Shown here: in pieces, positions 6,010-43,896 of the stretch
How positions within the stretch are numbered: position 1 is the stretch's first letter
Layout of the letters: each line of letters begins with the position of its first letter
Assembly: GCA_016700095.1 (NCBI GenBank)
Contig: CP065002.1
Span: 496,463 to 560,462, forward strand
Direction: 5' to 3'
DNA length: 64,000 nt
Source: Candidatus Woesebacteria bacterium
Lineage (GTDB): Bacteria; Patescibacteriota; Microgenomatia; UBA8517
Notes under the pieces: model-generated
Told to the model about the DNA's origin: nothing
The model's input: the letters and a program-made list of their open reading frames with translations, nothing else
Databases searched by the model: none
Translations under genes and position numbers: made by a program

Positions 6010-7653
6010 ATGGCTTATTACTTAAAATACCGTCCACAAACAATAGATGATTTAGACCTAGAATCGGTACGCGAAGATCTAACAAGGGTTGTTAAATCGG
6101 GATCCATACCGCATGCACTGCTGTTTGCAGGACCAAAGGGTACGGGAAAAACTTCTGCCGCAAGGATTTTAGCCAAAATAGTAAATTGCGAAAAAAGAAA
6201 GAAAGATAGCACGCTTCCGTGTAATCAATGCGAACAGTGTAGAAGTATAACCAACTCGGCAAATATTGATGTGATTGAAATGGATGCCGCAAGTAACAGG
6301 GGAATCGATGATATACGTTTATTGAAAGACGCGGTAAAGCTGGCACCCGCACTTGCCAAGTCAAAGATTTATATTATCGACGAAGCGCATATGTTGACCA
6401 ATGAAGCAAGTAATGCACTGCTTAAAACATTGGAAGAACCGCCGAGCCACGTTATCTTTATTTTGGCGACAACAAATCCGGAAAAACTCATAAGTACAAT
6501 TCGTTCGCGTACTCACTTAATTAAATTTGGTAAAGCTTCTCTTAATGAGATTGTAGTATCACTTGAGAAAATTGCGAAGGGAGAAAATCTTAAAGTCGAC
6601 GACGGCGTATTATATGAAATAGCGCGATTGTCGGAAGGTTCGTTTCGGGATGCAGATAAATTATTGGAACAAACAGCCTATGGCAAGAAACATATCTCGC
6701 TTGCAGACATTGGAGATTTGCATGTTTCGGACATGTTTGATGTAGCTAACTTTTGCCTGTTATTAGCCACAAAAGATACCAAAAAGGCGTTGGGTATGGT
6801 TGACGAAGGTTTGCGTCAAGGCATGTCGGCAATTAGTATTGCCGATAAGATTATTGTGTATTTGAGAAAAGAGTTACTGGGAAAAATTGGTATAGGCGAA
6901 AGTACTAATTTAGATCTTGGAAAGAAAGAAATAATTACGTTAATAAAAATGTGTATACATGCTAAAAAAGATATGGCAATATCTTTCAACGAGCAAATTC
7001 CTCTTGAAGTGTTAATTGTCGAGTGGTGTGAAACTAATGATAACTCTGACAAAGAAGGTGAAGATAATGACACTGCCGGTAAAACTTCCTCTCAACCCGA
7101 TATTAAGGTAAGTAAGATAAACGCACAAGTTGATACGGTTAACAGTGAAGCTGATCCAATCACAATAAGTAAGACGGTGGTTCAGGTAAATAGTAATAAT
7201 GCAAGCGAGGAGAAAAATGGATGTGTGGATGGAGATGGACATGAAGTGGCAAATTCGATTACGCATGAGCTTTGGTCTACAATTCTTTCCGAAATACGGC
7301 CGATAAATGCGTCAACCGAAGCACTTTTAAGAGCATCGCGGCCGCTAAATTTTGATGGAAAAACTTTAAATCTCGGGGTTTACTATACATTTCACAAAGA
7401 GCATTTGGAAAGCATTAATCATCGAATGCTTTTGGAAAATGCCTGTGCAAAAGTTTTAGGTGGTCAGGTGCACGTGGTGTGTTCCTTGACGGAAGCGCCG
7501 GTGACTGAGATCGCCAATGTCTCGCAAATACCATCTGCGAATGCGTCAAATAATTCATTTTCAAACGGTAGTAAAACCAATTTAACTGGTACTTTGACCA
7601 ATAGCGATGAAACGGATATAATAAATATTGCCAAAGATATATTTGGCGATTAG
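6010..7653 (+). CDS. dnaX: DNA polymerase III subunit gamma/tau
   Basis: Walker A GPKGTGKTSAARILAK, zinc module CNQCEQCRSI and clamp-loader sensor motifs; followed by ybaB-recR as in the conserved dnaX-ybaB-recR cluster. Confidence 0.95.
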   Translation: MAYYLKYRPQTIDDLDLESVREDLTRVVKSGSIPHALLFAGPKGTGKTSAARILAKIVNCEKRKKDSTLPCNQCEQCRSITNSANIDVIEMDAASNRGIDDIRLLKDAVKLAPALAKSKIYIIDEAHMLTNEASNALLKTLEEPPSHVIFILATTNPEKLISTIRSRTHLIKFGKASLNEIVVSLEKIAKGENLKVDDGVLYEIARLSEGSFRDADKLLEQTAYGKKHISLADIGDLHVSDMFDVANFCLLLATKDTKKALGMVDEGLRQGMSAISIADKIIVYLRKELLGKIGIGESTNLDLGKKEIITLIKMCIHAKKDMAISFNEQIPLEVLIVEWCETNDNSDKEGEDNDTAGKTSSQPDIKVSKINAQVDTVNSEADPITISKTVVQVNSNNASEEKNGCVDGDGHEVANSITHELWSTILSEIRPINASTEALLRASRPLNFDGKTLNLGVYYTFHKEHLESINHRMLLENACAKVLGGQVHVVCSLTEAPVTEIANVSQIPSANASNNSFSNGSKTNLTGTLTNSDETDIINIAKDIFGD

Positions 7654-7662
7654 AATAACACT

Positions 7663-7944
7663 ATGGCATTTGATAAATTTAAACAACTCGGCGAATTAAA
7701 CAAAATGCGCCAAGAAGCAAAAAAACTTCAAAAGGAACTCGAGAAAGAGGAAGTTACATATGAGAAAGGTGCAATAAAAATTAAAGTTAACGGTGCACAA
7801 CAAATTGTGTACTTTCAATTAGACGACAGTGATCGTGATGATATCAAGGAAGCAATCAATGAAGCAATGAAGGAAGTACAAAAAAAGGCGGCGCGAAAGA
7901 TGATGGAGATGGGCGGTGGACTTTCGGGACTTTTTGGTAAATAA
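7663..7944 (+). CDS. ybaB: nucleoid-associated protein YbaB/EbfC
   Basis: 93 aa, MAFDKFKQLGELNKMRQEAKKLQKELEKEEV...; position between dnaX and recR. Confidence 0.9.
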   Translation: MAFDKFKQLGELNKMRQEAKKLQKELEKEEVTYEKGAIKIKVNGAQQIVYFQLDDSDRDDIKEAINEAMKEVQKKAARKMMEMGGGLSGLFGK

Positions 7945-9522: not shown

Positions 9523-10251
9523 ATGGATAATTTAATTAACGAATTAGAAAAGATTCGGGGAAAAACTTTGCTTGTTTGCTATCCTCATCCGGACGATGAA
9601 ACGATGATCTCGGGAGGTCTTCTTCGTGAAGCAAAAAAGTATGATATCAAAACTGTTGTGCTGGTATTAACCCAGGGCGGTGAGGGGAAAATGCATATTC
9701 ATCCAAGAGGAAAATCTGTCAAAGAAGTTAGAACCAAAGAACTTAATAGTGCTATGACCAAATTAAAAGTTGATAAAGTGATATTGGAAAATTACCCCGA
9801 CGCTTATTTGCGGGATTGCAAAGATCTCTGGACAAAAAAGCTAACACGACAAATCAGAGAATTAAAGCCTGCTATGGTGGTTACGTATGATCATTCGGGG
9901 ATTACCGGTAATCCGGATCATATCGTATTGTCACTTGAATTAACGAGAATAATTTCTTCTATGAAGAAAAATGCAAGGCCAATTTTCTACTTTGCGACAT
10001 TGGATTTGGAAAATAAACCGCTTGTGTCAAGATACATGTGTTCAGAAGTATTGCCTTATGTGTCAAAAGCAACAAGCTTTTTGAAGATCAATATTGTCAG
10101 AAAAATATTGACAGCGCGAGTGTACAAAAGTCAAAATGTGATGAATTTAAAAACAGCGCTTTACTATCTGATTTTTCTACGTAAGGAATGGTATCATAAA
10201 GTAGATTTTGACAAAACATATCCCTTTAAATATGTCCCTTTCAAACTCTAA
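9523..10251 (+). CDS. PIG-L/LmbE family N-acetylglucosaminyl deacetylase
   Basis: N-terminal LLVCYPHPDDETMISGG (HPDDE zinc-binding signature of the LmbE/PIG-L family). Confidence 0.8.
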   Translation: MDNLINELEKIRGKTLLVCYPHPDDETMISGGLLREAKKYDIKTVVLVLTQGGEGKMHIHPRGKSVKEVRTKELNSAMTKLKVDKVILENYPDAYLRDCKDLWTKKLTRQIRELKPAMVVTYDHSGITGNPDHIVLSLELTRIISSMKKNARPIFYFATLDLENKPLVSRYMCSEVLPYVSKATSFLKINIVRKILTARVYKSQNVMNLKTALYYLIFLRKEWYHKVDFDKTYPFKYVPFKL

Positions 10252-30357: not shown

Positions 30358-33300
30358 TTATTTTCTAGGAAGACGTTTTCTTACAATAAATACAATTCCA
30401 CCGATTACGACAATAAAAAGTCCGAAGGCTGTAATTGGTCCAATGATACTAAATATTCCGGAAGAATAATCGAGAGCACTTACATTATCGTAACCGACTG
30501 GAGGCATCATTTGTGTGTCAGTTGCACTTTTATTCATTCCAAAGAAGTTAAGGTTTAAATCGGAACTAATACCGTCAGCCGGATCCGACAGCGTTACGCG
30601 TTGGGGTTGGGTCGTAGTTTGTTCTCTATATCTATCTGCTCGCATAGACTCTCTTTCCAGCTGTGAAATTTGTTGATCATTAACTAGCGCAATCAATGAT
30701 GAATAAGGTGTCACGATATTAGCGTTTGTAGCAATTAAATCAAGTTCGTCGAGAAATGCCGTATCTTGTATCAACGTGCTTCTATCGCGTATTTTCTCAT
30801 CAATAATAGCCTTGGCAAAAACGTAGGAAAGAGGATCGGATGCTTGAGTTTCTATTAATATCGGTAAATCGACATATACCTTGCTAAATTCACCGTGGAT
30901 ATTGGGAGCGACAATCGAATCGAAGGAAGAGTTGTGTGCTAATGCATATACCAAAGCTTGCTCGAAGCTCGTGTAAGAATAGGTATTGGATTTTAAAAGA
31001 GTAGGCAGGAGATTGTCAGAAACTTGCAAAAAGCCGGTGTCATTAATTAGTGAGACGTTGTCATAAAGCGATTTGGTCATTTTTGAAATATTGTCAAAAA
31101 CAAAAATTAAATCATAAGAACGTTTGATGCTAGCGGACAAATCGACGATAGAAGTGCTGCCAAAATATGTTATATTGTCCAGGATTTGATCACTATTTAA
31201 TTTAGTTAACGTTTGTGGTTTACTGATTACGTCGTTGTATTTGAAAAACTCGACAGAATTTGCAGAAAGAAATCCTTCATTGTCTTTGAAAAATCGACTC
31301 AACTTTTCTTCGTACTTGTATTGTTTGTTTGCAATGGTGGTATTAAAAAAGATGGCAATTTTGAGGTCCTTTGCGTTGGCTATCAAGTTACATGGATTTT
31401 GAAAACCATAGTTCGTTATTTTTGTCAGATGATCAGTTTGCGAGTTTAAGGTGTAATTACATTTTTCCGGTGAAGGTATATATCCACCCTTGGTTACATT
31501 ATCTTGTGACAAATTACTGTATATTCCATTAACTTTTAGCGAGTAGATGACACCAGTGTCTTTAATATTAATGTTTTCTTTGTATGAGGGAAGAGCGAAT
31601 CCGTTTTTCTCGACTGCGGTTACGTATGTAAACGCGACTCGTTGATTTTTTCCCTTAAGAGTTACCGTATCGTTTTTACCGGGGATGGGGAACACTCTTA
31701 ATCTGTAGGAATTTGGTCCGATTTGTTCGAGAAGTGCGGGATCGCGCTGTGTTTGTATTTGAGCATTAAAAGTACGAGTTGCAGCTCCTTGTGGAGCAAC
31801 CAGTCCTTTGAATTCCAAATCCGGTCCAAGTTGTAAGTTGGTTATCACAGATCCAGGGGGAAGTGAAAAATGATATGAGACCTCTTCGTTGCGTGAGGTT
31901 GTATTTTTGAATTCGTCCTCTATCGTGATAGTTGCCAATAGACCATCGTATGACGTTACGGTGTCAATATTTCTTTTTATCAAATCAACATTTTGAATGG
32001 CAAGTGTTGTTTCTTTGTCATCACCAAATACATAATTATAGGTATTAATTATTGTATATTTATTTTCAAAACTACCCTGGTAAACAAAAGGGTAGGCGAT
32101 AATTTCAAATACATCTTCTATTTTTGTGGCCGTGTCGCTGTCGAGGTCAAAAGAATCGATATATAACCGACTTATAGTGTCATCGTTTTTCGCCATGATA
32201 TACCTATCTTTGAAATTAGCCATATCATTGATGGCGTTTTCTAAGAGATTTTTCTTACTCGACAGCTCCAGAGTTAAGCTTTCTCGTTCCTCGTAAGTCG
32301 AGAGCTTGTGGATGTCAAGCAATTTATTGAAGTAGTTATCAGGACTGGGTTGGTATGACAAGATTGCTACAAGGATAATCCAGATCGCAGTGATTCCAAT
32401 TGATCTTGTGACAAGATAATTTTCTCCCTTATCGCGGGATGATTTTATCCATTGTAAATAAAATATTTTGAAAGACTTAATTGTTACCAAAAAAGGAATC
32501 GACAAGACCAGCAATACTGGAATAAAAATGATAATAAATTCCAAAACACGAACGAACATATCTGCAAAATCGAAAGATCGAGAAAACAAAATATCATAAA
32601 AAGCCTCCGCAAATAGAGGAGCGATAAAGAAACTAAGAATTAAACACAAATACGAAAGAGTAATAAAAAGACTTAACTTGATAAAAAGTGCCATAAATAA
32701 AGGGGTTTTGAATTTGTATTCATATCCGGTTATGTTTGCAAAAAACATCGGAACAGACGACATTATAATCACGAAAAGGAAAATCATAATTTTACTCGGT
32801 TCGGGAAAAAGAGTGAGAAATGTTGTACCCGCCAAAACTACGGGTATTTCCAATAGGAAAAATATACCTCCGTATTTATATTTAATATTTTGTTTTCTCA
32901 GGTGCAAAGAAAGATAAACAACAAAATAGGGGACAAGAAGTAATCCCAAAACAAGGATAACTTTAAAAGGGTTTGTTTCAGTGATTAAATTAATAAATTC
33001 GGATCGCTTGGAAAAAAGTGCTTGAACTAGTATCGCAGAAGTTAGGGCAATATAGAGAAGGTTATATCCCCAGAAAATAAAACCGGCCATAAAAGATGTG
33101 AATTTGTCATTATCGTTTTTGGTTTGGGGTGACTTATCCGTTTGTGGTGCATTTTTTGATATATTGTCGATAATTATTTCCCGTGCGGTTTTCTCGGCTA
33201 AATGTACAAATTCCTTGGGAGCGACTTCTTTCCCGTCGGCAACTACTTTTATGTCACCCGTAATAGCATTGATGACTACTTCGGCGTTTCTTTGGCTATC

Positions 33301-33420
33301 GGGATAAAGAGTGTAATAATTATCAAGCACTTTTGACCGGATTTTCTCCACAATGTCAGATTGGTTGGCGCCGCTTTCAATAGCAAGATCAAGAAGTTTA
33401 GAGTATTCACTCATTAACAT
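30358..33420 (-). CDS. large hypothetical polytopic surface protein (1020 aa)
   Basis: Cytoplasmic N-terminal about 100 aa, about 8 TM helices, an extracytoplasmic domain of about 600 aa, and a C-terminal TM helix followed by the basic tail VRKRLPRK. Confidence 0.6.
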   Translation of the reverse strand: MLMSEYSKLLDLAIESGANQSDIVEKIRSKVLDNYYTLYPDSQRNAEVVINAITGDIKVVADGKEVAPKEFVHLAEKTAREIIIDNISKNAPQTDKSPQTKNDNDKFTSFMAGFIFWGYNLLYIALTSAILVQALFSKRSEFINLITETNPFKVILVLGLLLVPYFVVYLSLHLRKQNIKYKYGGIFFLLEIPVVLAGTTFLTLFPEPSKIMIFLFVIIMSSVPMFFANITGYEYKFKTPLFMALFIKLSLFITLSYLCLILSFFIAPLFAEAFYDILFSRSFDFADMFVRVLEFIIIFIPVLLVLSIPFLVTIKSFKIFYLQWIKSSRDKGENYLVTRSIGITAIWIILVAILSYQPSPDNYFNKLLDIHKLSTYEERESLTLELSSKKNLLENAINDMANFKDRYIMAKNDDTISRLYIDSFDLDSDTATKIEDVFEIIAYPFVYQGSFENKYTIINTYNYVFGDDKETTLAIQNVDLIKRNIDTVTSYDGLLATITIEDEFKNTTSRNEEVSYHFSLPPGSVITNLQLGPDLEFKGLVAPQGAATRTFNAQIQTQRDPALLEQIGPNSYRLRVFPIPGKNDTVTLKGKNQRVAFTYVTAVEKNGFALPSYKENINIKDTGVIYSLKVNGIYSNLSQDNVTKGGYIPSPEKCNYTLNSQTDHLTKITNYGFQNPCNLIANAKDLKIAIFFNTTIANKQYKYEEKLSRFFKDNEGFLSANSVEFFKYNDVISKPQTLTKLNSDQILDNITYFGSTSIVDLSASIKRSYDLIFVFDNISKMTKSLYDNVSLINDTGFLQVSDNLLPTLLKSNTYSYTSFEQALVYALAHNSSFDSIVAPNIHGEFSKVYVDLPILIETQASDPLSYVFAKAIIDEKIRDRSTLIQDTAFLDELDLIATNANIVTPYSSLIALVNDQQISQLERESMRADRYREQTTTQPQRVTLSDPADGISSDLNLNFFGMNKSATDTQMMPPVGYDNVSALDYSSGIFSIIGPITAFGLFIVVIGGIVFIVRKRLPRK

Positions 33421-35291: not shown

Positions 35292-35624
35292 ATGAACATG
35301 GGTTCATATAGTTGTTGTATACCTTCTGGTTCGGAATCAAAAAAACTACACTCGTTATCTTCCGTTTTAAAACTGGTTTCTGAGGAAAGTAGGTTAAAAA
35401 TATTGTGCATTCTTCGTCAAGGTGAACATTGTGTCTGTGAATTGATGGAACATATTGATTTGTCACAGAGTCTTATTTCTCATCACTTATCTGACCTAAA
35501 AGGTGCAGAAATCGTAGTTGACGACAAGAGGGGTTTGCGTGTGTATTATTCTTTGACCGACAAAGGTAAACTCGTTACCGAATTACTTTTTAGTATTCCG
35601 ATAAAGGAGGTGTTAGATAAATGA
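35292..35624 (+). CDS. arsR: ArsR/SmtB-family metalloregulator
   Basis: HTH region and metal-site-like motif CVCEL (HCVCELMEH) characteristic of ArsR/SmtB. Confidence 0.85.
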   Translation: MNMGSYSCCIPSGSESKKLHSLSSVLKLVSEESRLKILCILRQGEHCVCELMEHIDLSQSLISHHLSDLKGAEIVVDDKRGLRVYYSLTDKGKLVTELLFSIPIKEVLDK

Positions 35625-35872
35625 AAATCCAAGTTCTAGGGTCGGGGTGTCCGACATGTAAAAAATTATTTGAAATTACAAAAAAGGCAGTTAGTGATAT
35701 GAAATTGTCAGGTGAAGTAGATTATTTAACAGGTAGTGAGGGAATCGGTAAGATAATTGAATTGGGGTCAATGACGAGTCCTGTTTTGTCAGTTGATGAC
35801 AAAATTGCGATGGTTGGTTTCACACCAGATATTGAAAAAATAAAATCAGCAATTCGTGAAGCTTCGAAATAA
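35621..35872 (+). CDS. thioredoxin-fold small protein (redox-active disulfide protein 2-like)
   Basis: 83 aa with CPTC active-site-like motif (KIQVLGSGCPTCKKL); typical partner of ArsR/permease operons. Confidence 0.75.
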   Translation: MKIQVLGSGCPTCKKLFEITKKAVSDMKLSGEVDYLTGSEGIGKIIELGSMTSPVLSVDDKIAMVGFTPDIEKIKSAIREASK

Positions 35873-35875
35873 TGT

Positions 35876-36859
35876 ATGGATATCTTTAAACCGATTCATG
35901 TTTTTGCTGATCTCATTACCTTAAACTGGTTAGGGTTGGAAAGTGAATCATATGTAGAAAGTGCGATTAACTTTTTTATTTACGACATCATAAAAATAGG
36001 ACTTCTTCTTGTTGTTATTAATTATGTAATGGCTATTACGCGCTACTATTTCCCGATGGAAAAAGTTCGGGACATATTAGTAAAAAGGCGTTGGTTTGGT
36101 TTAGACTATTTATTTGCAGCTGGCCTTGGGGTCATAACACCATTTTGCTCGTGTTCGTCAATTCCATTGTTTATCGGTTTTGTCGGTGCGGGAATTCCGT
36201 TGGGGGTTACTTTTGCCTTTTTAATCAGTTCTCCTTTAGTGAACGAATCATCTCTATACTTATTTCCCGCCATGTTTGGTATGAAAATTACTGTAATCTA
36301 TAACATTATTGGAATAACGATTGCGGTTTTTGGGGGAAAATTGATTAGTCGACTTCATGTTGAAAAATTCGTAAAACCGCAGTTAATGAAATTCAAATCT
36401 AAACCGCAGATCGAGGAGGAGCGCGGAGGAGTTAAACTGTCAACAAAAGAATTAATCAAATATTTTTGGGATGATGGATGGGCTATTACCAAAGAGGTTT
36501 TCCCATACGTAGTTTTAGGTGTGGGATTAGGAGCTTTGATTCATGGTTATTTTCCCACGAGCCTAATCGAAAACTATTTATCGAGTACATCTTGGTGGGC
36601 TGTGCCCTTGGCAACTTTGCTTGGGTCGCCTCTTTACGCAAATTCATTTGGAGTGATTCCCGTCGTGGAAGCCTTGATCGGCAAGGGTGCGCCACTTGGT
36701 ACTGCCTTGGCATTCATGACTGCCATAGTCACGATTTCGATTCCTCAAGTCATGATTCTTAAAAAAGTAATGCAATGGCAACTGTTGGGAATATTTTTTG
36801 GCATAACAACTCTGGGAATTATTGTCATGGGTTATCTGCTTAATTATTTGTTTGTATAG
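35876..36859 (+). CDS. DUF318/ArsP-like permease
   Basis: Multi-TM protein with the conserved TPFCSCSS(I/V)P motif (ITPFCSCSSIPLF) diagnostic of ArsP/two-CxxC permeases. Confidence 0.75.
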   Translation: MDIFKPIHVFADLITLNWLGLESESYVESAINFFIYDIIKIGLLLVVINYVMAITRYYFPMEKVRDILVKRRWFGLDYLFAAGLGVITPFCSCSSIPLFIGFVGAGIPLGVTFAFLISSPLVNESSLYLFPAMFGMKITVIYNIIGITIAVFGGKLISRLHVEKFVKPQLMKFKSKPQIEEERGGVKLSTKELIKYFWDDGWAITKEVFPYVVLGVGLGALIHGYFPTSLIENYLSSTSWWAVPLATLLGSPLYANSFGVIPVVEALIGKGAPLGTALAFMTAIVTISIPQVMILKKVMQWQLLGIFFGITTLGIIVMGYLLNYLFV

Positions 36860-38008: not shown

Positions 38009-38560
38009 TTATATCGACAAGACAGGGAGTGCGGTTACAACCAAGCGTTTGGAATCCAGAAAACCACTACAGGTATAAAGTGTAATACGCTCATCATTTG
38101 TCGGATCCAGAATTCCCATTTGATCAGGGCTGACAATTTGTACATATTCTATTTTGTAGCTTCTGGTTGTACCGTCCGATAGTACAATCTTAATTAAGTC
38201 ACCTGGTTGTGCCTTTGCCAAATTACCCAGAATATTCTTGTAATTATGTCCATAAAAAACACTATTCCCGTTTTGACCTGGTGTTGCAGATGATACAAGA
38301 AATGACACACCTTCGGTTGTGGTTTCCCATCTACCTTCATTAACTCTGGCGGGAAAAACTGAAAGATTAATGTCCAAAGTGCTAAGAGAAAGTGATACCG
38401 GTTGTAAATCTAATTTATCTTCTTTATTGCTATATGTGTTTATGGCAACGTTACTGAAGGCTAGTCGGTTTGGGTTATATCTTTGCCATAAGTAAAATGC
38501 TGAAACAATCATCATACATATTCCGGTGACGATAAATACGTTGGCAAGCAGATTTTTCAT
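38009..38560 (-). CDS. sortase-family transpeptidase (membrane anchored)
   Basis: N-terminal TM anchor; catalytic triad context His (SVFYGHNYKN), Cys in DERITLYTCSGF (TLxTC), Arg (KRLVV). Confidence 0.8.
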   Translation of the reverse strand: MKNLLANVFIVTGICMMIVSAFYLWQRYNPNRLAFSNVAINTYSNKEDKLDLQPVSLSLSTLDINLSVFPARVNEGRWETTTEGVSFLVSSATPGQNGNSVFYGHNYKNILGNLAKAQPGDLIKIVLSDGTTRSYKIEYVQIVSPDQMGILDPTNDERITLYTCSGFLDSKRLVVTALPVLSI

Positions 38561-38572
38561 ATGTAGAACACT

Positions 38573-39253
38573 TTATCTTGCTACTGTTTTTTTAAGTATT
38601 ACGCCAGCTAAAAGCGAGGAAAAACCAAGAAGGGTGTAGATGGTGATTGTCGCAAGGTTGCCGGTTGTTGCCAGTCCCAAAACCGATCCGCCGTTACTTG
38701 TCGAAGCGGCTGCTGATAGTACCGACCCCGTTGAAGTATTTGAATTTGACGAAGTAGAAGAAGAATTGGTTGATCCTCCACAACTGTAATTAGCGTTTAT
38801 AGCCATGTAACTACTGGCATCCAAACCCCACACCGAACCACTCGGTACAAATACCCAACCCAATTTTTTAAGGGTTTCGATTTCATCTTCATCTAAGGAA
38901 CTTATTTTCCACCAGTTTGTTTGAACACCTGAACCGTTTTCGCTGCAAAAACATTGCATTGCGCTACCATTTTCAAGACTATATACATAATCACTACCTG
39001 CGCGCAAAACACCTTCACCGACAATTGCGTGTTGTCCATCGGTGTAGGATACTTTTAAAACTCCTTGTGGATTCGAGCAAGCAGGGAAGTTGGGGATGGC
39101 TGATTGCGCGCTTACTGAACTTGTAAGCGACAAGGAAAGAAGTAAGCTAACTAAACTTAACGAAATACTTTTGGCAATGTTCATTTTTGAATTGGCAGAT
39201 GAAAAAGATAGATTTAATACAAGTATAATAACATTATAGGTCATAAAAAGCAA
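38573..39253 (-). CDS. sortase-substrate surface protein with LAxTG sorting signal and Ser/Thr-rich stalk
   Basis: Signal peptide (probable start MNIAKSISLSLVSLLLSLSLTSSVSA at 39184), globular domain with Cys pairs, then SSTSSNSNTSTGSVLSAAASTSNGGS linker. C-terminal LATTG + hydrophobic span + KKTVAR is a canonical cell-wall sorting signal. Confidence 0.75.
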   Translation of the reverse strand: MLFMTYNVIILVLNLSFSSANSKMNIAKSISLSLVSLLLSLSLTSSVSAQSAIPNFPACSNPQGVLKVSYTDGQHAIVGEGVLRAGSDYVYSLENGSAMQCFCSENGSGVQTNWWKISSLDEDEIETLKKLGWVFVPSGSVWGLDASSYMAINANYSCGGSTNSSSTSSNSNTSTGSVLSAAASTSNGGSVLGLATTGNLATITIYTLLGFSSLLAGVILKKTVAR

Positions 39254-39459: not shown

Positions 39460-40740
39460 TTATCTAGTGAAAAACGCAACAAACACTTTTCGTAATTTGA
39501 AAAATATATTCTCATGCTGTTTAATCAATATGATACGAAGTGGTGTGTCTCCCGAAGCATTAAGGTAGAGTGTATTATAATTATCTGCTTCAACTTGTAT
39601 CTTTGTATCTTCGGCTAATAGTGGAATGTAGAATTTTCCGTCAGCGTTGGTTGTTGCCGACTTATTGTCGGAATAAATCCTAGCATTATTGACAGCTTGA
39701 CCGATTTCGTTTACCACAACCCCTATTGCAATTTTGGGTTGATAGTATTTTGTAAGTACGTCAACTGCCGGTCGTTTGTCGAAATTATCTTCCCACAATT
39801 TGGTGCTGCCACCAAAACTTGTCCAATAATTAATACCTACCAGGTCATCGATCTTTGTAAGTTTATTAAGTGCGTCGTCGATCCAAACAGCTTGCTCTTT
39901 TGTGTTTAGATTTCCATGCAAGTCGGAAATGGGAGCACCGAATTCACCAAGGATAACTTGTCCACCACTTTTTAGAGCTAAGCTTTCAATGTCTTTGACC
40001 AATCTATCATCATCGCCAACATAGTGATCGATAACGACAATTCCACCCAAGGCTTGTGTTGTAGTTTTATCCATAATTAGATTGGCAACATCGCCGTTCA
40101 TGGGGACGAAATTTGAACGAACGTTTTTGCCGATTTTTCGGAAGGCATCGTTTGTTACCCTGTATTCGTCAATTATAAATTTTCGGTACTCATTGACATC
40201 TCTTGTTATTCTGGGATCTCCCGGTCCGCCATTTTCGCATTCGGGACATGAACTAAAAATATCACCTTCCATAAACAAATTTCCATTCGTAAGTATGAAA
40301 TCTTTGATTAAGGCTGTGTGTTCTTCTCTGCTAATTGTGTCATAATCAAACCAACCTTCCCATCCCGGCACGTTACCACGAAACCAAACTTTCAAGTTGT
40401 ATTTTCTGGCAGCATTTACCCAACGAGTAAGGAACGGCACAAATTCTTGTGCATACGGAGTACCGATGGACACATGGGTTGCGCCCGTTTCGGCTATTAG
40501 ACGGACATGTGAATCGATTACGTTGTCAAAAGTTGGATCAAGTGCTTTCTCTCGCGCTACGTCGCGTGAATATTTCACCGTATCGATCGATTGGATATCC
40601 CACCAGGTTGCCCTTATATCTTGTGCCTGATTGACGAAGTTTGGTTTAACTACGCTTGCCAATATACCAAATATTATGACAAGCAAAATGAGAATTATGA
40701 GAAGTTTTTTGTTTTGCACTTTTATATTATTTACACTCAT
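39460..40740 (-). CDS. membrane-anchored putative glycoside hydrolase (TIM-barrel, GH5-like) with C-terminal carboxypeptidase-regulatory-like beta-sandwich
   Basis: N-terminal TM anchor; ILGEFGAP resembles the GH5-type nucleophile strand; C-terminal GVVVNEIGQAVNNARIYSD...DGKFYIP resembles a CarboxypepD_reg-like domain. Family assignment is tentative. Confidence 0.5.
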   Translation of the reverse strand: MSVNNIKVQNKKLLIILILLVIIFGILASVVKPNFVNQAQDIRATWWDIQSIDTVKYSRDVAREKALDPTFDNVIDSHVRLIAETGATHVSIGTPYAQEFVPFLTRWVNAARKYNLKVWFRGNVPGWEGWFDYDTISREEHTALIKDFILTNGNLFMEGDIFSSCPECENGGPGDPRITRDVNEYRKFIIDEYRVTNDAFRKIGKNVRSNFVPMNGDVANLIMDKTTTQALGGIVVIDHYVGDDDRLVKDIESLALKSGGQVILGEFGAPISDLHGNLNTKEQAVWIDDALNKLTKIDDLVGINYWTSFGGSTKLWEDNFDKRPAVDVLTKYYQPKIAIGVVVNEIGQAVNNARIYSDNKSATTNADGKFYIPLLAEDTKIQVEADNYNTLYLNASGDTPLRIILIKQHENIFFKLRKVFVAFFTR

Positions 40741-40747
40741 AATCCGG

Positions 40748-42370
40748 TTATTTTTGTTTACTGAAAATTGGATAAGTAGTTAATTTAGGTACAAATTCGA
40801 ACTTTAGTTCATAAATATCCGCAAAGGGATAACTTTCGACTAACACATAATTTTCAAATCCTTGGGTTTTACTGACAGATCTCCATACCGAATCGTTATT
40901 GTCGTGCGACCGCATAATTATCCACCTTGCCCAATGATCGGGAGTTGTGGTTGCCGATTCCCAATAAGCCCCGGTTCCTTCGTGGATAAACTTTTTCATA
41001 GGCAAATTGGATGAGAATATTATTGCGTCATGGCTGGCTGCCGAAATTAAAACAAAGCCTTCTTTGGATCCGGCATTTTCTTTCAACCACCCCGACACCT
41101 CGGTTACGTTTTTCTGACTTGAACCGACCCTGGCGTCGTCAATTGTTACTGCATCTTGATTTACAAAGGCAAAAAATGTTACAAAAGCAAATAATCCGAT
41201 TATCATCCAACGCAAATCTTTGAACTTGTCCACCAAAAATCCGGAAAAAATAGCAATCGAGGGTAAAAGCATTATTCCGTAACGGACATTGAACCAAGTA
41301 TTTCCCGAAATTCCTTGGATAAAAAGTACGGAGTGGCCAAGGTATAGAGCTAAAATATTAAATACTAACGGTGCCAAGAGTGCAGCAATTGCTATTTTTA
41401 CCTCGTACTTGATTTTGGATGTCCAAATCGCAATTAATCCTACAACTCCCATTAAAACCTGATATGCGTAGGAATTGTAAACCATAGCATAAAGATAAAG
41501 TTTGATAGACAACAAAATATTGTGTTTGGTTGCCAATTCTCCCGCCGCGTTGAGTTGGTCTTGCTGAGCTTTCGCAGAAAATTCCCCAAGTGCAAAGTAG
41601 AGTGGATCTCCAAAAATCATCAAATTCCACAATAACCATAATAGAATTCCTAAACTTCCAAGTGTTAGGAAAAGAAGTATTTTCCCTTCGGTTTCTTTGT
41701 AACCATGTTTTCGAATGACTGTAAAAAATATTATTAATGTTGCTGTAAAAAGAAGAAACCATCCATCGTAGCGTGTGATTGTCGAGAGCATAATAAAAAA
41801 TGCAGCCTTAATTAGATTCAAAATTTCATCTTTTTTCGCCCAAAGCATGAGGTAATATGCACCTAAAGTCATTGTTGCCAGAAGCAATAGTTCCGTCATG
41901 GCTGTTGATTGTAGATAGAGAATGTTTACATTAGCTACAAAAACCACAACTCCAAAGAACCTTCCAATGAGACCAACCTTTAATTGTTCAAGGAATTTGT
42001 AAATAATTACCCCCATAGCAATAAATGAGATCATGGAGACAAGTGCGCCCGAAAGACCCGAATGCCAAAAAAAGTCATTCCAAATTGTCGGGATCATGAG
42101 GACATGGGGGAGAGGAAGCCATACTGAACCCAACTGAGCTATTCCCGGTTTCAAACCTTCAACTACACGTCGACCGATATCCAAGTGACTTCTGGCATCA
42201 TTGTAGGCAAGACCGATGCCGTTTTGGTAGTAGTGAACGAAAAAGTAGGTAGAGATTGCGGTCAGTAAAAATATAATTATTACCACAGCATGTTTCTCCA
42301 ACCACACGTGGATGTTGGCTAAGGTTCTTTTCTGCAGACTAAAACTAATTACAAATTCTGGAATTTTCAT
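40748..42370 (-). CDS. GT-C fold membrane glycosyltransferase (PMT/ArnT, GT39/GT83-like)
   Basis: About 11 N-terminal TM helices with an Asp-containing first extracytoplasmic loop (YNDARSHLDIGRR) and a soluble C-terminal domain of about 130 aa; this architecture marks polyprenyl-phosphate-sugar-dependent GT-C enzymes. Confidence 0.65.
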   Translation of the reverse strand: MKIPEFVISFSLQKRTLANIHVWLEKHAVVIIIFLLTAISTYFFVHYYQNGIGLAYNDARSHLDIGRRVVEGLKPGIAQLGSVWLPLPHVLMIPTIWNDFFWHSGLSGALVSMISFIAMGVIIYKFLEQLKVGLIGRFFGVVVFVANVNILYLQSTAMTELLLLATMTLGAYYLMLWAKKDEILNLIKAAFFIMLSTITRYDGWFLLFTATLIIFFTVIRKHGYKETEGKILLFLTLGSLGILLWLLWNLMIFGDPLYFALGEFSAKAQQDQLNAAGELATKHNILLSIKLYLYAMVYNSYAYQVLMGVVGLIAIWTSKIKYEVKIAIAALLAPLVFNILALYLGHSVLFIQGISGNTWFNVRYGIMLLPSIAIFSGFLVDKFKDLRWMIIGLFAFVTFFAFVNQDAVTIDDARVGSSQKNVTEVSGWLKENAGSKEGFVLISAASHDAIIFSSNLPMKKFIHEGTGAYWESATTTPDHWARWIIMRSHDNNDSVWRSVSKTQGFENYVLVESYPFADIYELKFEFVPKLTTYPIFSKQK

Positions 42371-43896
42371 AAATTTTCCTTTTTATTTTCAAAATATGTA
42401 GCGGTGTAAAAAAGACTTATCAGAAGTAATATGGTGAAAGTATACAACGCAGTGTAATTAATGCTATTCATATATTTGTTAGCATATGCGTTATAAAAAA
42501 TTGAACTATTTAGTTTGTCCTCAGTCATTAATTGCCAGTTATATAAATACGTATGGGGAATCGGGTTGGGTAAATTAACAGCTTCAACTTTTGGGGGTAC
42601 CTGGGAAGTTGTCGTTGCACCCATTACATTAATACCAACGCTATATGTTGTAAGAATTATAAACAAAGGAATAAACCATGCTTTTTTTGTGTACTTTTGT
42701 ATGGCCAAACCGATGGTAATAGATAACACAGCAGTCGCTGGGATTAGATATCTTGGTCCAAATGCCCAACTGCCCGTAGGATCACCAAACATTGTGTAAA
42801 TCAACAAATTTGTCATAGTCACAGCAATTAATAATTTTGATTTGCCGCGCAACTGTTTATTTTTGTAAGCGAAAGCTAGCCCGGCTATTCCAAGTATGAT
42901 GATAGGACTATAAACAAATATGCTTCTTTGGTCACTTATTATAAATATGTAAAAACCTTCAAGTTGCCCTCTTGTTTTGAAGGGTAGACTTAAACCTTTC
43001 TTTTCAACTTCTGAAGAAACCTCAACTTGTAACTTGTTTGTAAAATCATTACTTCGTCCGAGAAATTGGGCCAGTGTAGTGTAAGATTGTGCAGTCTCAT
43101 AATTGTACCACCCAAATATTCCAACTAACGGAATTATTCCAATTAATAAGCCAATAAAATTTAATTTTAAACTAAGCTTAAGTTTACTTCCGGTATTATG
43201 GACATTAAACTGTTTGGCGAGAATATAAAAAACCAGAGGGAACATGATTATTCCATTAGGTATATCCATTAGAAGTCCTATTCCATATGATATACCAAAA
43301 ATAATGTTGTTTAATAAAGTTCTGGGTTTCATGGTATATAAAATCCCAACCAATATTAGAGAAGTACTTGCGTGATGTTGCGTAAATGTGAATGCATAAG
43401 ATAATGCGTTAGTCGCAAACAAAAAAAGTAATCCACACAATATTGACATGTACAAACCTGAACCCAATTTTCTGGATATATTGGCTATTAAGAATAAATT
43501 TACCACTGCAAATAGAATTGTTGAAAAATATGTTGAAATCTGAGGAATTCCAAATTGTTTGCCCAATAAATAAAATGGTACTCCCACGAAAGAAACGCCA
43601 GGTGTGAAGATTGAGAAGTACTTGCCTTTATAATTGGTAACGTCAGGTGAGGCAAATCCTGCTCTTTCTGTATTTAGCATAAAGGTACTGTCTTCCACAA
43701 TCGCTTCAGTTAATGCAAATCTAGAAGTGCTACCAGATGATTCAAAGGGAGTACCCACAGCCGTACTTTTACTTTTTGTATCTTGATATAATAATAAATT
43801 ATCTTCTCTTTTACCTTTAACGTTTATTGTTAACAAAAATACTATTACTATAATAAATAGTAAATATGATGAATATTTGATGATATTTTTTAGCAT
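42367..43896 (-). CDS. GT-C fold membrane glycosyltransferase (PMT/ArnT-like), paralog of the previous gene
   Basis: Same architecture (first-loop motif EDSTF..., 10 or more TM helices, C-terminal soluble tail); 4-nt overlap with the downstream gene. Confidence 0.65.
   Translation of the reverse strand: MLKNIIKYSSYLLFIIVIVFLLTINVKGKREDNLLLYQDTKSKSTAVGTPFESSGSTSRFALTEAIVEDSTFMLNTERAGFASPDVTNYKGKYFSIFTPGVSFVGVPFYLLGKQFGIPQISTYFSTILFAVVNLFLIANISRKLGSGLYMSILCGLLFLFATNALSYAFTFTQHHASTSLILVGILYTMKPRTLLNNIIFGISYGIGLLMDIPNGIIMFPLVFYILAKQFNVHNTGSKLKLSLKLNFIGLLIGIIPLVGIFGWYNYETAQSYTTLAQFLGRSNDFTNKLQVEVSSEVEKKGLSLPFKTRGQLEGFYIFIISDQRSIFVYSPIIILGIAGLAFAYKNKQLRGKSKLLIAVTMTNLLIYTMFGDPTGSWAFGPRYLIPATAVLSITIGLAIQKYTKKAWFIPLFIILTTYSVGINVMGATTTSQVPPKVEAVNLPNPIPHTYLYNWQLMTEDKLNSSIFYNAYANKYMNSINYTALYTFTILLLISLFYTATYFENKKENL

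What the first reader, a model, noticed from the sequence alone, without database searches (positions are those of the whole stretch)
38009..39253. Sortase with an adjacent LAxTG-type substrate carrying a Ser/Thr-rich stalk
The 38573..39253 product ends in LATTG + a hydrophobic span + the basic tail KKTVAR. That is a textbook cell-wall sorting signal of the LAxTG type. It is preceded by an about 30-residue Ser/Thr/Asn-rich low-complexity stalk (a candidate O-glycosylation site) and an about 110-aa Cys-containing globular domain. The neighbouring gene encodes a membrane-anchored sortase with an intact His/Cys(TLYTC)/Arg triad. This implies a monoderm, peptidoglycan-anchored surface-display apparatus.
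Basis: seen in the sequence. Interest (0 to 1): 0.6.

Follow-up and report, generated by a model that had tools for sequence, protein, structure and literature searches.

The report
Dedicated sortase and its LAxTG surface protein
A tiny uncultured bacterium (Candidatus Woesebacteria) encodes a membrane enzyme (sortase) next to the one small secreted protein it most likely staples to the cell wall; the mechanism is ordinary, but the pair is conserved across many related species and the protein has no known relative or solved fold.

Summary
ORF 38009-38560(-) is a real sortase: Pfam scores 76.5 bits against a cut-off of 26.6, and His105/Cys164/Arg172 are invariant in 73 orthologues. ORF 38573-39184(-) encodes a signal peptide, a ~108-aa four-Cys domain, a 33-aa disordered Ser/Thr-rich linker, and then LATTG, a hydrophobic span and KKTVAR. 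The signal is not a chance match. [LF]AxTG is kept in 273 of 292 non-redundant homologue tails, within an extended G-x-V-L-G-L-A-x-T-G-N motif. The pairing holds in both directions: the sortase lies directly downstream of the substrate in 73 of 80 species genomes, and the substrate lies directly upstream of the sortase in 56 of 57 metagenome loci with room.

The window is from a Candidatus Woesebacteria genome (CPR/Patescibacteria). Sortases are already reported as near-ubiquitous in Microgenomates, and GenBank already calls this gene "sortase". What appears new:
- The substrate family is an orphan, with no Pfam, NCBIfam, PDB or solved-fold match.
- The sortase fits none of the curated classes. 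It is not class E, the known LAxTG class.
- The pair ends a conserved cassette: two GT-C-like membrane proteins, a membrane-anchored GH-A-fold enzyme, the substrate and the sortase.

Verdict: a new member of a known kind, of moderate interest.

The parts
38009..38560 (-). Sortase gene (183 aa plus stop). N-terminal membrane anchor at about residues 4-22. Catalytic H105 (38246-38248), C164 in TLYTC (38069-38071) and R172 (38045-38047).
   Evidence: Pfam PF04203 76.5 bits against 26.6. The triad is invariant in 73 orthologues. One hydrophobic segment. GenBank name 'sortase', QQS39485.1. No NCBIfam class cut-off is reached.
38573..39184 (-). Sortase-substrate gene, from the probable true ATG start (203 aa plus stop). 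The mechanical ORF extends to 39253 and the GenBank start is 39244.
   Evidence: Homologues are ~190-200 aa and align from this Met.
39107..39184 (-). Sec signal peptide MNIAKSISLSLVSLLLSLSLTSSVSA (probable cleavage VSA|Q).
   Evidence: Read directly from the sequence. The -1 Ala (A46 in P0001 numbering) is nearly invariant. A helix is predicted there.
38780..39106 (-). Globular domain of ~108 aa, rich in Trp. Four Cys (two invariant, two in >=90%), the QCFC and QTNWW motifs, and 11 conserved aromatic positions.
   Evidence: AF2 pLDDT 94-98. Conservation. No Pfam or NCBIfam hit, no PDB sequence hit, and no Foldseek hit below E = 0.19 in PDB or BFVD.
38681..38779 (-). Ser/Thr/Asn/Gly-rich disordered stalk (33 aa, 55% S+T).
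   Evidence: Family median is 28.5 aa, 32% S+T, 7% charged.
38660..38674 (-). LATTG pentapeptide. It is the core of the extended conserved motif G-x-[VI]-L-G-[LF]-A-x-T-G-[ND].
38576..38659 (-). Hydrophobic span NLATITIYTLLGFSSLLAGVIL plus basic tail KKTVAR (stop-transfer part of the sorting signal).
   Evidence: (helix 197-222).
39460..40740 (-). Conserved upstream neighbour p426: N-terminal membrane anchor, (beta/alpha)8 glycoside-hydrolase-like domain (clan GH-A fold) and a C-terminal beta-sandwich.
   Evidence: AF2 pLDDT 89. Foldseek matches GH157, GH26, GH30 and GH5 at E 1e-11 to 1e-8. E167, E169, N170 and E266 are invariant. It lies directly upstream of the substrate in 56 of 72 loci with room.
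40748..42370 (-). Conserved neighbour p540: polytopic membrane protein, a remote GT-C-like candidate, very highly conserved (median 63% identity across species).
   Evidence: Weak hits to NCBIfam NF047440 (E 5.5e-7) and, for 1 of 20 members, Pfam PMT_2 (E 4.9e-5).
42367..43896 (-). Conserved neighbour p509: second polytopic GT-C-like candidate. Its end overlaps the start of p540 by 4 nt.
   Evidence: NF047440 E 1.3e-16. PMT_2 in 3 of 25 members, best E 5.2e-6. Synteny.

Best explanation
This is a two-gene, probably co-transcribed (12-nt gap) surface-anchoring unit of a Candidatus Woesebacteria (CPR/Patescibacteria) cell.

The 203-aa precursor is exported by Sec and its signal peptide is removed after VSA. 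The C-terminal hydrophobic span and KKTVAR tail hold the precursor in the membrane. The sortase encoded next door is a type-II membrane protein. It cleaves between Thr and Gly of LATTG, forming a Cys164 thioacyl intermediate with the help of His105 and Arg172. It then passes the protein's new C-terminal Thr to an amine of the peptidoglycan precursor.

The result is a wall-linked polypeptide of ~148 aa. Its disulfide-stabilised, Trp-rich globular head sits on a ~30-residue flexible Ser/Thr-rich spacer long enough to cross the wall.

The enzyme and this substrate family are mutually dedicated. The sortase is a lineage-specific subfamily outside classes A-F and GN that pairs with an Ala-containing (LAxTG) signal preceded by a conserved G-x-V-L-G.

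The pair ends a conserved envelope cassette: GT2 genes, two GT-C-like membrane proteins and an exposed GH-A-fold enzyme. The head domain therefore most likely acts on or binds an envelope or partner glycan.

Shown here: gene identity, motif conservation, synteny, catalytic residues and fold confidence. Inferred: the cleavage site, the acceptor and the function of the head domain.
For: - Sortase identity and invariant triad.
- Complete tripartite sorting signal plus signal peptide.
- Across 292 non-redundant tails, [LF]AxTG occurs in 273, and the flanking G-x-[VI]-L-G and +1 N/D are conserved even though the adjoining linker is low-complexity and variable.
- The sortase is directly downstream of the substrate in 73 of 80 species-level genome loci; only 3 loci with room lack it.
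- Reciprocally, the substrate is directly upstream in 56 of 57 sortase-seeded metagenome loci with room.
- The head domain is modelled confidently and the linker is disordered.
- No Lys is conserved in the mature protein, which argues against pilus polymerisation.
- The cassette is conserved: p426 adjacent in 56 of 72 loci, p540 then p426 in 43, and all three in 35. p426 has a GH-A fold. There are weak GT-C signals.
Against: - There is no biochemical evidence; the cleavage site and acceptor are assumed by analogy with characterised sortases.
- The sortase fails every curated class model. It has Leu, not the class E Tyr, at the position proposed to favour Ala at P3 (PMC5148588), so there is no known structural explanation for LAxTG preference here.
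- No NCBIfam sorting-signal model recognises the tail.
- The number of other sorting-signal proteins and sortases in the genome is unknown, because only 64 kb of a 1.27-Mb contig was available. 'Dedicated' therefore rests on synteny alone.
- The function of the head domain is unsupported by any homology or solved-fold match.
- A few homologues lack LAxTG.
Confidence: 0.72

Rival explanations
1. The sortase attaches the protein to something other than peptidoglycan, such as a secondary envelope glycopolymer or an S-layer or other protein component made by the neighbouring glycan genes. Alternatively, it simply hydrolyses the signal and releases the protein from the membrane.
For: The pair sits at the 3' end of an ~18-kb same-strand glycan-biosynthesis cluster. 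The sortase belongs to no characterised class, so its nucleophile cannot be predicted by homology.
Against: All characterised sortases with this tripartite signal use lipid II/peptidoglycan or a pilin Lys (established knowledge of the family). Microgenomates encode peptidoglycan synthesis (PMC7143001). Nothing here points to another acceptor.
Confidence: 0.1
2. The C-terminal segment is only a membrane anchor. The adjacent sortase works on other, unlinked substrates, and the gene adjacency reflects shared regulation of envelope genes.
For: Five family members replace the LAxTG tail with a Cys-rich polytopic membrane domain (P0340, P0342, P0351, P0362, P0377), so membrane tethering alone can be sufficient. 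No NCBIfam sorting-signal model hits the tail.
Against: A plain anchor would not keep T at 99%, G at 100% and A at 95%, plus a conserved V-L-G flank, next to a variable linker. The adjacency is reciprocal (73 of 80 and 56 of 57). No other sorting-signal ORF lies in the window, and only 4 plausible extra ones were found in about 0.9 Mb of related loci.
Confidence: 0.06
3. The pair is a minimal sortase-assembled pilus or fibre: the sortase polymerises the small protein head-to-tail, as class C sortases do with pilins.
For: One sortase with one adjacent small substrate resembles pilus islands. Class C sortases are among the closer solved relatives.
Against: No Lys is conserved in the mature domain; the best position is 79% K and 89% K or R. 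The model is a small alpha/beta domain with no match to Ig-like pilin folds. There is no second (housekeeping) sortase in the window. The sortase fails the class C model (32.9 bits against 160).
Confidence: 0.04

Closest known systems
Class E sortases and their LAxTG substrates in Actinobacteria (e.g. Streptomyces coelicolor SrtE1/SrtE2 with chaplins; PMC5148588)
   Same: Both use an Ala-containing LAxTG pentapeptide followed by a hydrophobic span and a basic tail. Both enzymes are membrane-anchored His/Cys/Arg transpeptidases that presumably anchor small surface proteins to the wall.
   Different: The enzyme scores only 30.6 bits on the class E model (cut-off 160). The one solved structure I believe to be class E (5utt, identified from memory) is near the bottom of the family's PDB matches (E 3.5e-4). 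The position aligned to CpSrtD F92, the equivalent of the class E Tyr, is Leu. It lacks the long cytoplasmic N-terminal segment described for SrtE1. The pentapeptide is preceded by a conserved G-x-V-L-G. The host is a CPR bacterium, not an actinobacterium.
Class D sortases (e.g. Clostridium perfringens SrtD, PDB 4d70) and class A Bacillus anthracis SrtA (2kw8)
   Same: These are the best sequence matches among solved structures (E 4e-7 for the single sequence; 1.4e-13 and 2.4e-12 for the family profile). Size and single N-terminal anchor are similar.
   Different: Scores are far below the class cut-offs (46.7 against 140 and 41.9 against 165). CpSrtD is reported not to process LAETG (PMC5148588), whereas this family is paired with LAxTG.
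Dedicated one-sortase/one-substrate pairs, such as the class GN 'marine sortase' (TIGR03784), which I recall as having a single adjacent target
   Same: The architecture is the same: a sortase gene tightly and reciprocally linked to one substrate family.
   Different: The TIGR03784 score is 36.6 against 158. The motif, phylogenetic range and substrate domain all differ. The comparison with class GN biology rests on my own knowledge and was not tested here.
The Microgenomates sortase family fam000526 of Meheust et al. 2019 (PMC6744442)
   Same: That paper reports a sortase family that is near-ubiquitous in Microgenomates. The present gene is very probably a member and is already annotated 'sortase' in GenBank.
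   Different: The parts of that paper that I read name no substrate, sorting motif or conserved cassette. Membership in fam000526 could not be checked with the tools available.

Membership tests
Sortase superfamily (Pfam PF04203) | Profile score above the curated gathering threshold | tested here: met
   76.5 bits against 26.6, covering model positions 5-124 of 125.
Sortase superfamily (Pfam PF04203) | Catalytic His, Cys (TLxTC) and Arg | tested here: met
   H105, C164 and R172 are invariant in 73 orthologues. The motifs are YGHN, T-x-YTC-x-G and R-x-V-x-x-A.
Sortase superfamily (Pfam PF04203) | Transpeptidase activity on a sorting signal | not testable with these tools
   Needs an enzyme assay or cell-wall proteomics.
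Class E sortase | NCBIfam NF033747 score at or above the cut-off | tested here: not met
   30.6 bits against 160 for the window enzyme. None of the 73 orthologues does better than E 6.7e-14.
Class E sortase | Conserved Tyr in the beta3/beta4 loop (S3 subsite), proposed to select Ala at P3 (PMC5148588) | tested here: not met
   The HMMER alignment to CpSrtD places Leu88 (in GVSF-L) opposite F92, which the paper names as the equivalent site. The family consensus is GVSYL. Caveat: the preceding residue is Tyr or Phe, so a one-residue shift in the loop alignment cannot be excluded.
Class E sortase | Paired with LAxTG substrates | tested here: met
   The adjacent substrate family carries [LF]AxTG in 273 of 292 tails. 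This is inferred from synteny, not from an assay.
Class A, B, C, D, F and GN sortases | NCBIfam class model at or above the cut-off | tested here: not met
   Best scores are SrtD 46.7/140, class D 41.9/165, GN 36.6/158, F 36.3/166 and C 32.9/160. The generic TIGR01076 model scores 36.6 against 39.35. The picture is the same for all 73 orthologues. No separate class A or class B model appeared among the hits.
Cell-wall sorting signal (LPXTG-type) | N-terminal signal peptide, then a pentapeptide, a ~20-residue hydrophobic span and a basic tail at the extreme C-terminus | tested here: met
   Read from the sequence. Conserved family-wide, with a median of 28 residues after the motif.
Cell-wall sorting signal (LPXTG-type) | Recognition by a curated sorting-signal model | tested here: not met
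   No NCBIfam or Pfam family hits the substrate at E <= 0.1. JGI's pipeline did label two homologues 'LPXTG-motif cell wall-anchored protein'.
Sortase-assembled pilin | Conserved nucleophilic Lys (pilin motif) and an Ig-like (CnaA/CnaB) fold | tested here: not met
   No Lys is conserved at 90% or more. The model is an alpha/beta domain with no significant solved-structure match.
Clan GH-A glycoside hydrolase (neighbour p426) | (beta/alpha)8 barrel with two conserved catalytic Glu | tested here: inconclusive
   The fold is met: Foldseek matches GH157, GH26, GH30 and GH5 at E down to 1e-11, with probability 1.00. E167, E169 and E266 (GEFG) are invariant, but their positions in the barrel were not checked. 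No CAZy-family sequence model matched.
GT-C glycosyltransferase (neighbours p540 and p509) | Polytopic membrane protein matching a GT-C family profile, with an acidic motif in the first external loop | tested here: inconclusive
   Each has at least 8 hydrophobic segments. All profile hits are below threshold: NF047440 at E 5.5e-7 and 1.3e-16 against a 200-bit cut-off, and PMT_2 in 1 of 20 and 3 of 25 family members. D58 after TM1 is invariant in p540. There is no PDB sequence hit.

The most novel reading that the evidence does not exclude
The five-gene cassette (two GT-C-like membrane proteins, an exposed GH-A-fold enzyme, the LAxTG protein and its private sortase), together with the GT2 genes upstream, makes a wall-anchored O-glycoprotein. 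On this reading, lipid-linked sugars made by the GT2 enzymes are transferred by the PMT-like GT-C proteins onto the Ser/Thr stalk as it emerges from Sec. The glycan is trimmed or remodelled by p426. The sortase then fixes the glycoprotein to the wall. The product would be a conserved surface glycoprotein of Microgenomates, with a head domain of unknown fold that might mediate contact with a host or partner cell.
Probability: 0.15. Interest if true: 0.7.

Novelty: new member of a known kind. Interest (0 to 1): 0.38.

Why it matters
Microgenomates are uncultured, ultra-small bacteria thought to depend on other cells, and almost nothing is known about what they display on their surface. This analysis names a concrete candidate that recurs in many species. 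It is a ~150-residue wall-anchored protein with an unrecognised fold, a defined extended sorting motif (GxVLG-LAxTG-N) and a private sortase, embedded in a conserved envelope-glycan cassette.

It gives experimenters a short list of testable items: a peptide substrate, a small enzyme, an antigen for labelling cells, and two highly conserved orphan membrane proteins. It also suggests that LAxTG recognition has arisen outside class E sortases without the Tyr proposed to explain it, which is useful for sortase-engineering work. The mechanism itself is textbook, so the conceptual advance is modest.

Tried and rejected
I repeated it with database homologues.
- Profile-against-PDB sequence searches for the substrate, p426, p540 and p509 gave nothing meaningful.
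- hhalign of the p540 profile against p509 was not significant (E 0.028, probability 1.7%), so I do not claim they are paralogues.
- I considered the pilin/polymerisation reading and rejected it: no conserved Lys and no Ig-like fold.
- I considered class E membership and rejected it.
- Two apparent in-frame substrate-sortase fusions (L005, P0282) looked like Rosetta-stone evidence. Both junctions are Lys/A-rich and L005 has an A10 run, so they may be assembly errors and I do not rely on them.
- The promoter and terminator scans around the pair were no better than shuffled sequence.
- Rfam and tRNA scans of the window found nothing.
- I could not count all sorting-signal proteins or sortases in the genome, because only 64 kb of the 1.27-Mb contig is available.
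Full report
**1. What is in the sequence**

Two adjacent minus-strand ORFs lie at the stated coordinates.

ORF 38009-38560 encodes a 183-aa protein. It has one N-terminal hydrophobic segment and a sortase domain scoring 76.5 bits against a Pfam cut-off of 26.6.

ORF 38573-39253 is listed from a TTG, and GenBank starts it at the ATG at 39244 (223 aa, P0001). Homologues are ~190-200 aa and align from the internal Met, so the likely start is the ATG at 39184. That start gives a normal signal peptide, MNIAKSISLSLVSLLLSLSLTSSVSA|Q. After the signal peptide come:
- a ~108-aa domain;
- a 33-aa linker, GGSTNSSSTSSNSNTSTGSVLSAAASTSNGGSV (55% Ser+Thr);
- LATTG;
- a 22-residue hydrophobic span;
- KKTVAR.

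A scan of all six frames of the 64-kb window found this tripartite signal only here. The one other hit is an antisense ORF inside a + strand gene and is plainly spurious.

**2. Where it comes from**

The substrate is identical to a hypothetical protein of a Candidatus Woesebacteria MAG on a 1.27-Mb contig. GenBank calls the sortase simply 'sortase'. It calls the substrate and the two large upstream membrane proteins 'hypothetical'. The rest of the window is ordinary small-genome housekeeping content: aminoacyl-tRNA synthetases, DnaX, pyruvate kinase, a Zn ABC transporter and HtrA/CtpB-type proteases. No tRNA or Rfam hits were found.

**3. Is the sorting signal real?**

A word-indexed search found 114 homologues, all from Microgenomates/Patescibacteria sources where a source is named. 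An exhaustive profile search of 1.84 billion cluster representatives found only 377 clusters at E <= 1e-3, of which 345 are at E <= 1e-10. The family is therefore compact and lineage-restricted, with no distant tail.

I pooled the homologues, the species-genome loci and the representatives into 292 non-redundant C-terminal tails:
- 255 carry LAxTG and 18 carry FAxTG; only 10 carry LPxTG.
- Ala at P3 is 95%, Thr 99% and Gly 100%.
- The residues before the pentapeptide are conserved as G-x-[VI]-L-G (61%, 84%, 77% and 76%).
- The residue after it is Asn or Asp in 71%.

The linker directly upstream is low-complexity and variable in length and sequence. Its family medians are 28.5 aa, 32% Ser+Thr, 77% S/T/N/G/A/P/Q and 7% charged.

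**4. Is the sortase intact, and which class is it?**

In 73 orthologues taken from the loci, H105, C164 and R172 are invariant. The surrounding motifs are YGHN, T-x-YTC-x-G and R-x-V-x-x-A. The second refutation condition is not met either.

No curated class model is reached:

| Model | Score (bits) | Cut-off (bits) |
|---|---|---|
| SrtD (NF058671) | 46.7 | 140 |
| Class D | 41.9 | 165 |
| Class GN | 36.6 | 158 |
| Class F | 36.3 | 166 |
| Class C | 32.9 | 160 |
| Class E | 30.6 | 160 |

The same holds for all 73 orthologues.

Against solved structures, the family profile is closest to Bacillus anthracis SrtA (1.4e-13), Clostridium perfringens SrtD (2.4e-12) and class C enzymes. The 5utt sortase, which I believe from memory is class E, appears only at 3.5e-4.

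The SrtE1 paper proposes that class E enzymes select Ala at P3 through a conserved beta3/beta4-loop Tyr. It names F92 of CpSrtD as the equivalent, non-permissive residue (PMC5148588). In the HMMER alignment to CpSrtD, that position is Leu88 of the window enzyme (GVSF-L; family consensus GVSYL). So this is an unclassified, lineage-specific sortase subfamily. It is paired with LAxTG without the proposed class E determinant. A one-residue loop shift, which would put the neighbouring Tyr/Phe there, cannot be excluded.

**5. Are the two genes functionally linked?**

A pattern scan of one genome per species returned 108 confirmed loci, of which the best 80 were kept. They come from Woese-, Roizman-, Levy-, Gottesman-, Chisholm- and Amesbacteria and similar groups.

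The sortase lies directly downstream of the substrate in 73 of these 80 loci. Three more loci end before a sortase could fit, and only three with room lack one.

I then ran the reciprocal test, seeding on the sortase profile in metagenome contigs. More than 500 confirmed loci were found and the best 80 were kept. The substrate family lies directly upstream in 56 of the 57 loci that have at least 650 nt of upstream sequence.

In the window the two genes are 12 nt apart. A 275-nt gap separates the pair from the next gene upstream. The promoter and terminator scans were uninformative. This reciprocal, tight linkage is the main evidence that this protein is the enzyme's substrate.

**6. The head domain**

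AlphaFold2 with the 114-sequence alignment gives pLDDT 94-98 for residues ~50-155 (P0001 numbering). The model shows several beta-strands (probably an antiparallel sheet) and one helix. The linker scores below 50, and the C-terminus forms a helix.

C98 and C100 are invariant and C56 and C155 are conserved in >=90% of homologues, which suggests two disulfides. Eleven aromatic positions are at least 80% conserved, including W111, W112, W130 and W139.

Nothing matches it:
- Pfam and NCBIfam;
- PDB sequences with the family profile;
- Foldseek against PDB, best E 0.19;
- Foldseek against BFVD.

The domain is modular. Some homologues insert an fn3 domain before the signal. One has three tandem copies ending in LPRTG. 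Five replace the sorting signal with a Cys-rich polytopic membrane domain. Together these suggest that tethering at the cell surface is the conserved requirement.

**7. The neighbourhood**

Upstream on the same strand are p426 (39460-40740), p540 (40748-42370) and p509 (42367-43896). Beyond them are four GT2 genes, a DRL-type oxidoreductase, an epimerase/dehydratase, a nucleotidyl transferase and a 1597-aa multi-glycosyltransferase. Together these form an ~18-kb glycan cluster.

The order p509, p540, p426, substrate, sortase recurs across species:
- p426 is adjacent in 56 of 72 loci with room.
- p540 then p426 occurs in 43 loci.
- All three occur in 35 loci.

p540 is strikingly conserved, at a median 63% identity against 43% for the substrate and 42% for the sortase.

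p426 has no catalytic-domain Pfam hit, but its model (pLDDT 89) matches clan GH-A TIM-barrel hydrolases: GH157 at E 1e-11, then GH26, GH30 and GH5. Its Glu residues E167, E169 and E266 (GEFG) are invariant.

p540 and p509 each have at least 8 hydrophobic segments. They have only sub-threshold similarity to a putative glycosyltransferase family (NF047440). A few members of each family also weakly hit Pfam PMT_2. I therefore treat them as GT-C candidates and nothing stronger.

**8. Mechanism and alternatives**

The best-supported reading is the textbook one. The precursor is exported by Sec and retained by the hydrophobic span and basic tail. The sortase cleaves at LAxT|G through Cys164 and transfers the protein to a peptidoglycan precursor amine. 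This leaves a ~148-aa protein whose head sits on a wall-spanning Ser/Thr spacer.

Published work agrees with a Gram-positive-like, peptidoglycan-containing envelope in Microgenomates and with near-universal sortase presence there (PMC7143001, PMC6744442).

I rate three alternatives as unlikely but not excluded: a non-peptidoglycan acceptor or simple release, an anchor-only tail, and pilus polymerisation.

The most interesting reading still open is that the GT-C-like proteins O-glycosylate the stalk, making the cassette a factory for a wall-anchored glycoprotein. That rests on context only.

**9. Novelty and verdict**

Already known: sortases are common in Microgenomates, and this gene is already annotated as one. 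The mechanism is canonical.

Not found in the searchable literature:
- the substrate family;
- its extended LAxTG signal;
- the reciprocal one-to-one pairing;
- the fact that the sortase fits no class;
- the conserved five-gene cassette.

I file this as a new member of a known kind and rate interest at 0.38.

Noticed in passing
window 40748-42370 (-): p540 is a 540-aa polytopic membrane protein with no Pfam family and no PDB sequence match. It is nevertheless 58-72% identical in most of the candidate-phylum-level Microgenomates lineages sampled, far more conserved than its neighbours. Many columns are invariant, including Y56-x-D58-A-x-S-H62 just after TM1. It looks like an important orphan envelope enzyme.
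   Followed up: partly
window 39460-40740 (-): p426 is annotated only as 'carboxypeptidase regulatory-like domain protein'. Its main domain is modelled confidently as a clan GH-A TIM-barrel glycoside hydrolase, closest to GH157, GH26, GH30 and GH5. The family has more than 2300 database members and no catalytic-domain Pfam model.
   Followed up: partly
L005:5851-7179 and protein P0282: The substrate and sortase are read as one continuous ORF. The sorting-signal tail runs straight into the sortase membrane anchor, which is topologically possible. Both junctions are Lys/A-rich and L005 has an A10 run, so these may be homopolymer assembly errors rather than real fusions.
   Followed up: partly
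proteins P0340, P0342, P0351, P0362, P0377: These family members have the same head domain (four of the five also appear to carry an fn3-like insert) but no LAxTG. Instead they end in a Cys-rich multi-span membrane domain (CxxCxWWPILL ... CPxG ... PCKYFW). This is an alternative, sortase-independent anchor of unknown type.
   Followed up: no
L052:6490-7248 with 7454-7792; L072:8516-9469 with 9636-10007: A second, different small protein ending in STDT-LAATG-S plus a hydrophobic span and basic tail is followed by a second sortase homologue, just downstream of the main pair. This suggests that substrate-then-sortase modules can be duplicated or diversified.
   Followed up: no
window 51304-56097 (-): A single 1597-aa ORF combines two GT2 domains with a GT4/Glycos_transf_1 module. 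This giant multi-glycosyltransferase heads the same-strand cluster that ends with the sortase pair.
   Followed up: no
window 30358-33420 (-): A 1020-aa protein has only a VIT (vault inter-alpha-trypsin) domain recognised. It may be a large surface or secreted protein, and it has no sorting signal.
   Followed up: no
window 35292-36859 (+): A compact three-gene unit: an ArsR-family HTH regulator, an 83-aa protein with a CPTC motif (thioredoxin-like), and an ArsP_1-family permease.
   Followed up: no
loci L005, L008, L012, L015 and many others: Many species-representative records that carry this Microgenomates-specific cassette are titled 'uncultured Gammaproteobacteria', 'Pseudomonadales' or 'Weeksellaceae'. 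These record titles look like mislabelled MAG taxonomy.
   Followed up: no
substrate linker, window 38681-38779 (-), and homologues: Many linkers contain a partial copy of the signal's flank about 10-15 residues before the real motif: G-x-V-L-[AGS]-A-x-S-T upstream of G-x-V-L-G-L-A-x-T-G. It might be a remnant duplication or a second recognition element.
   Followed up: no
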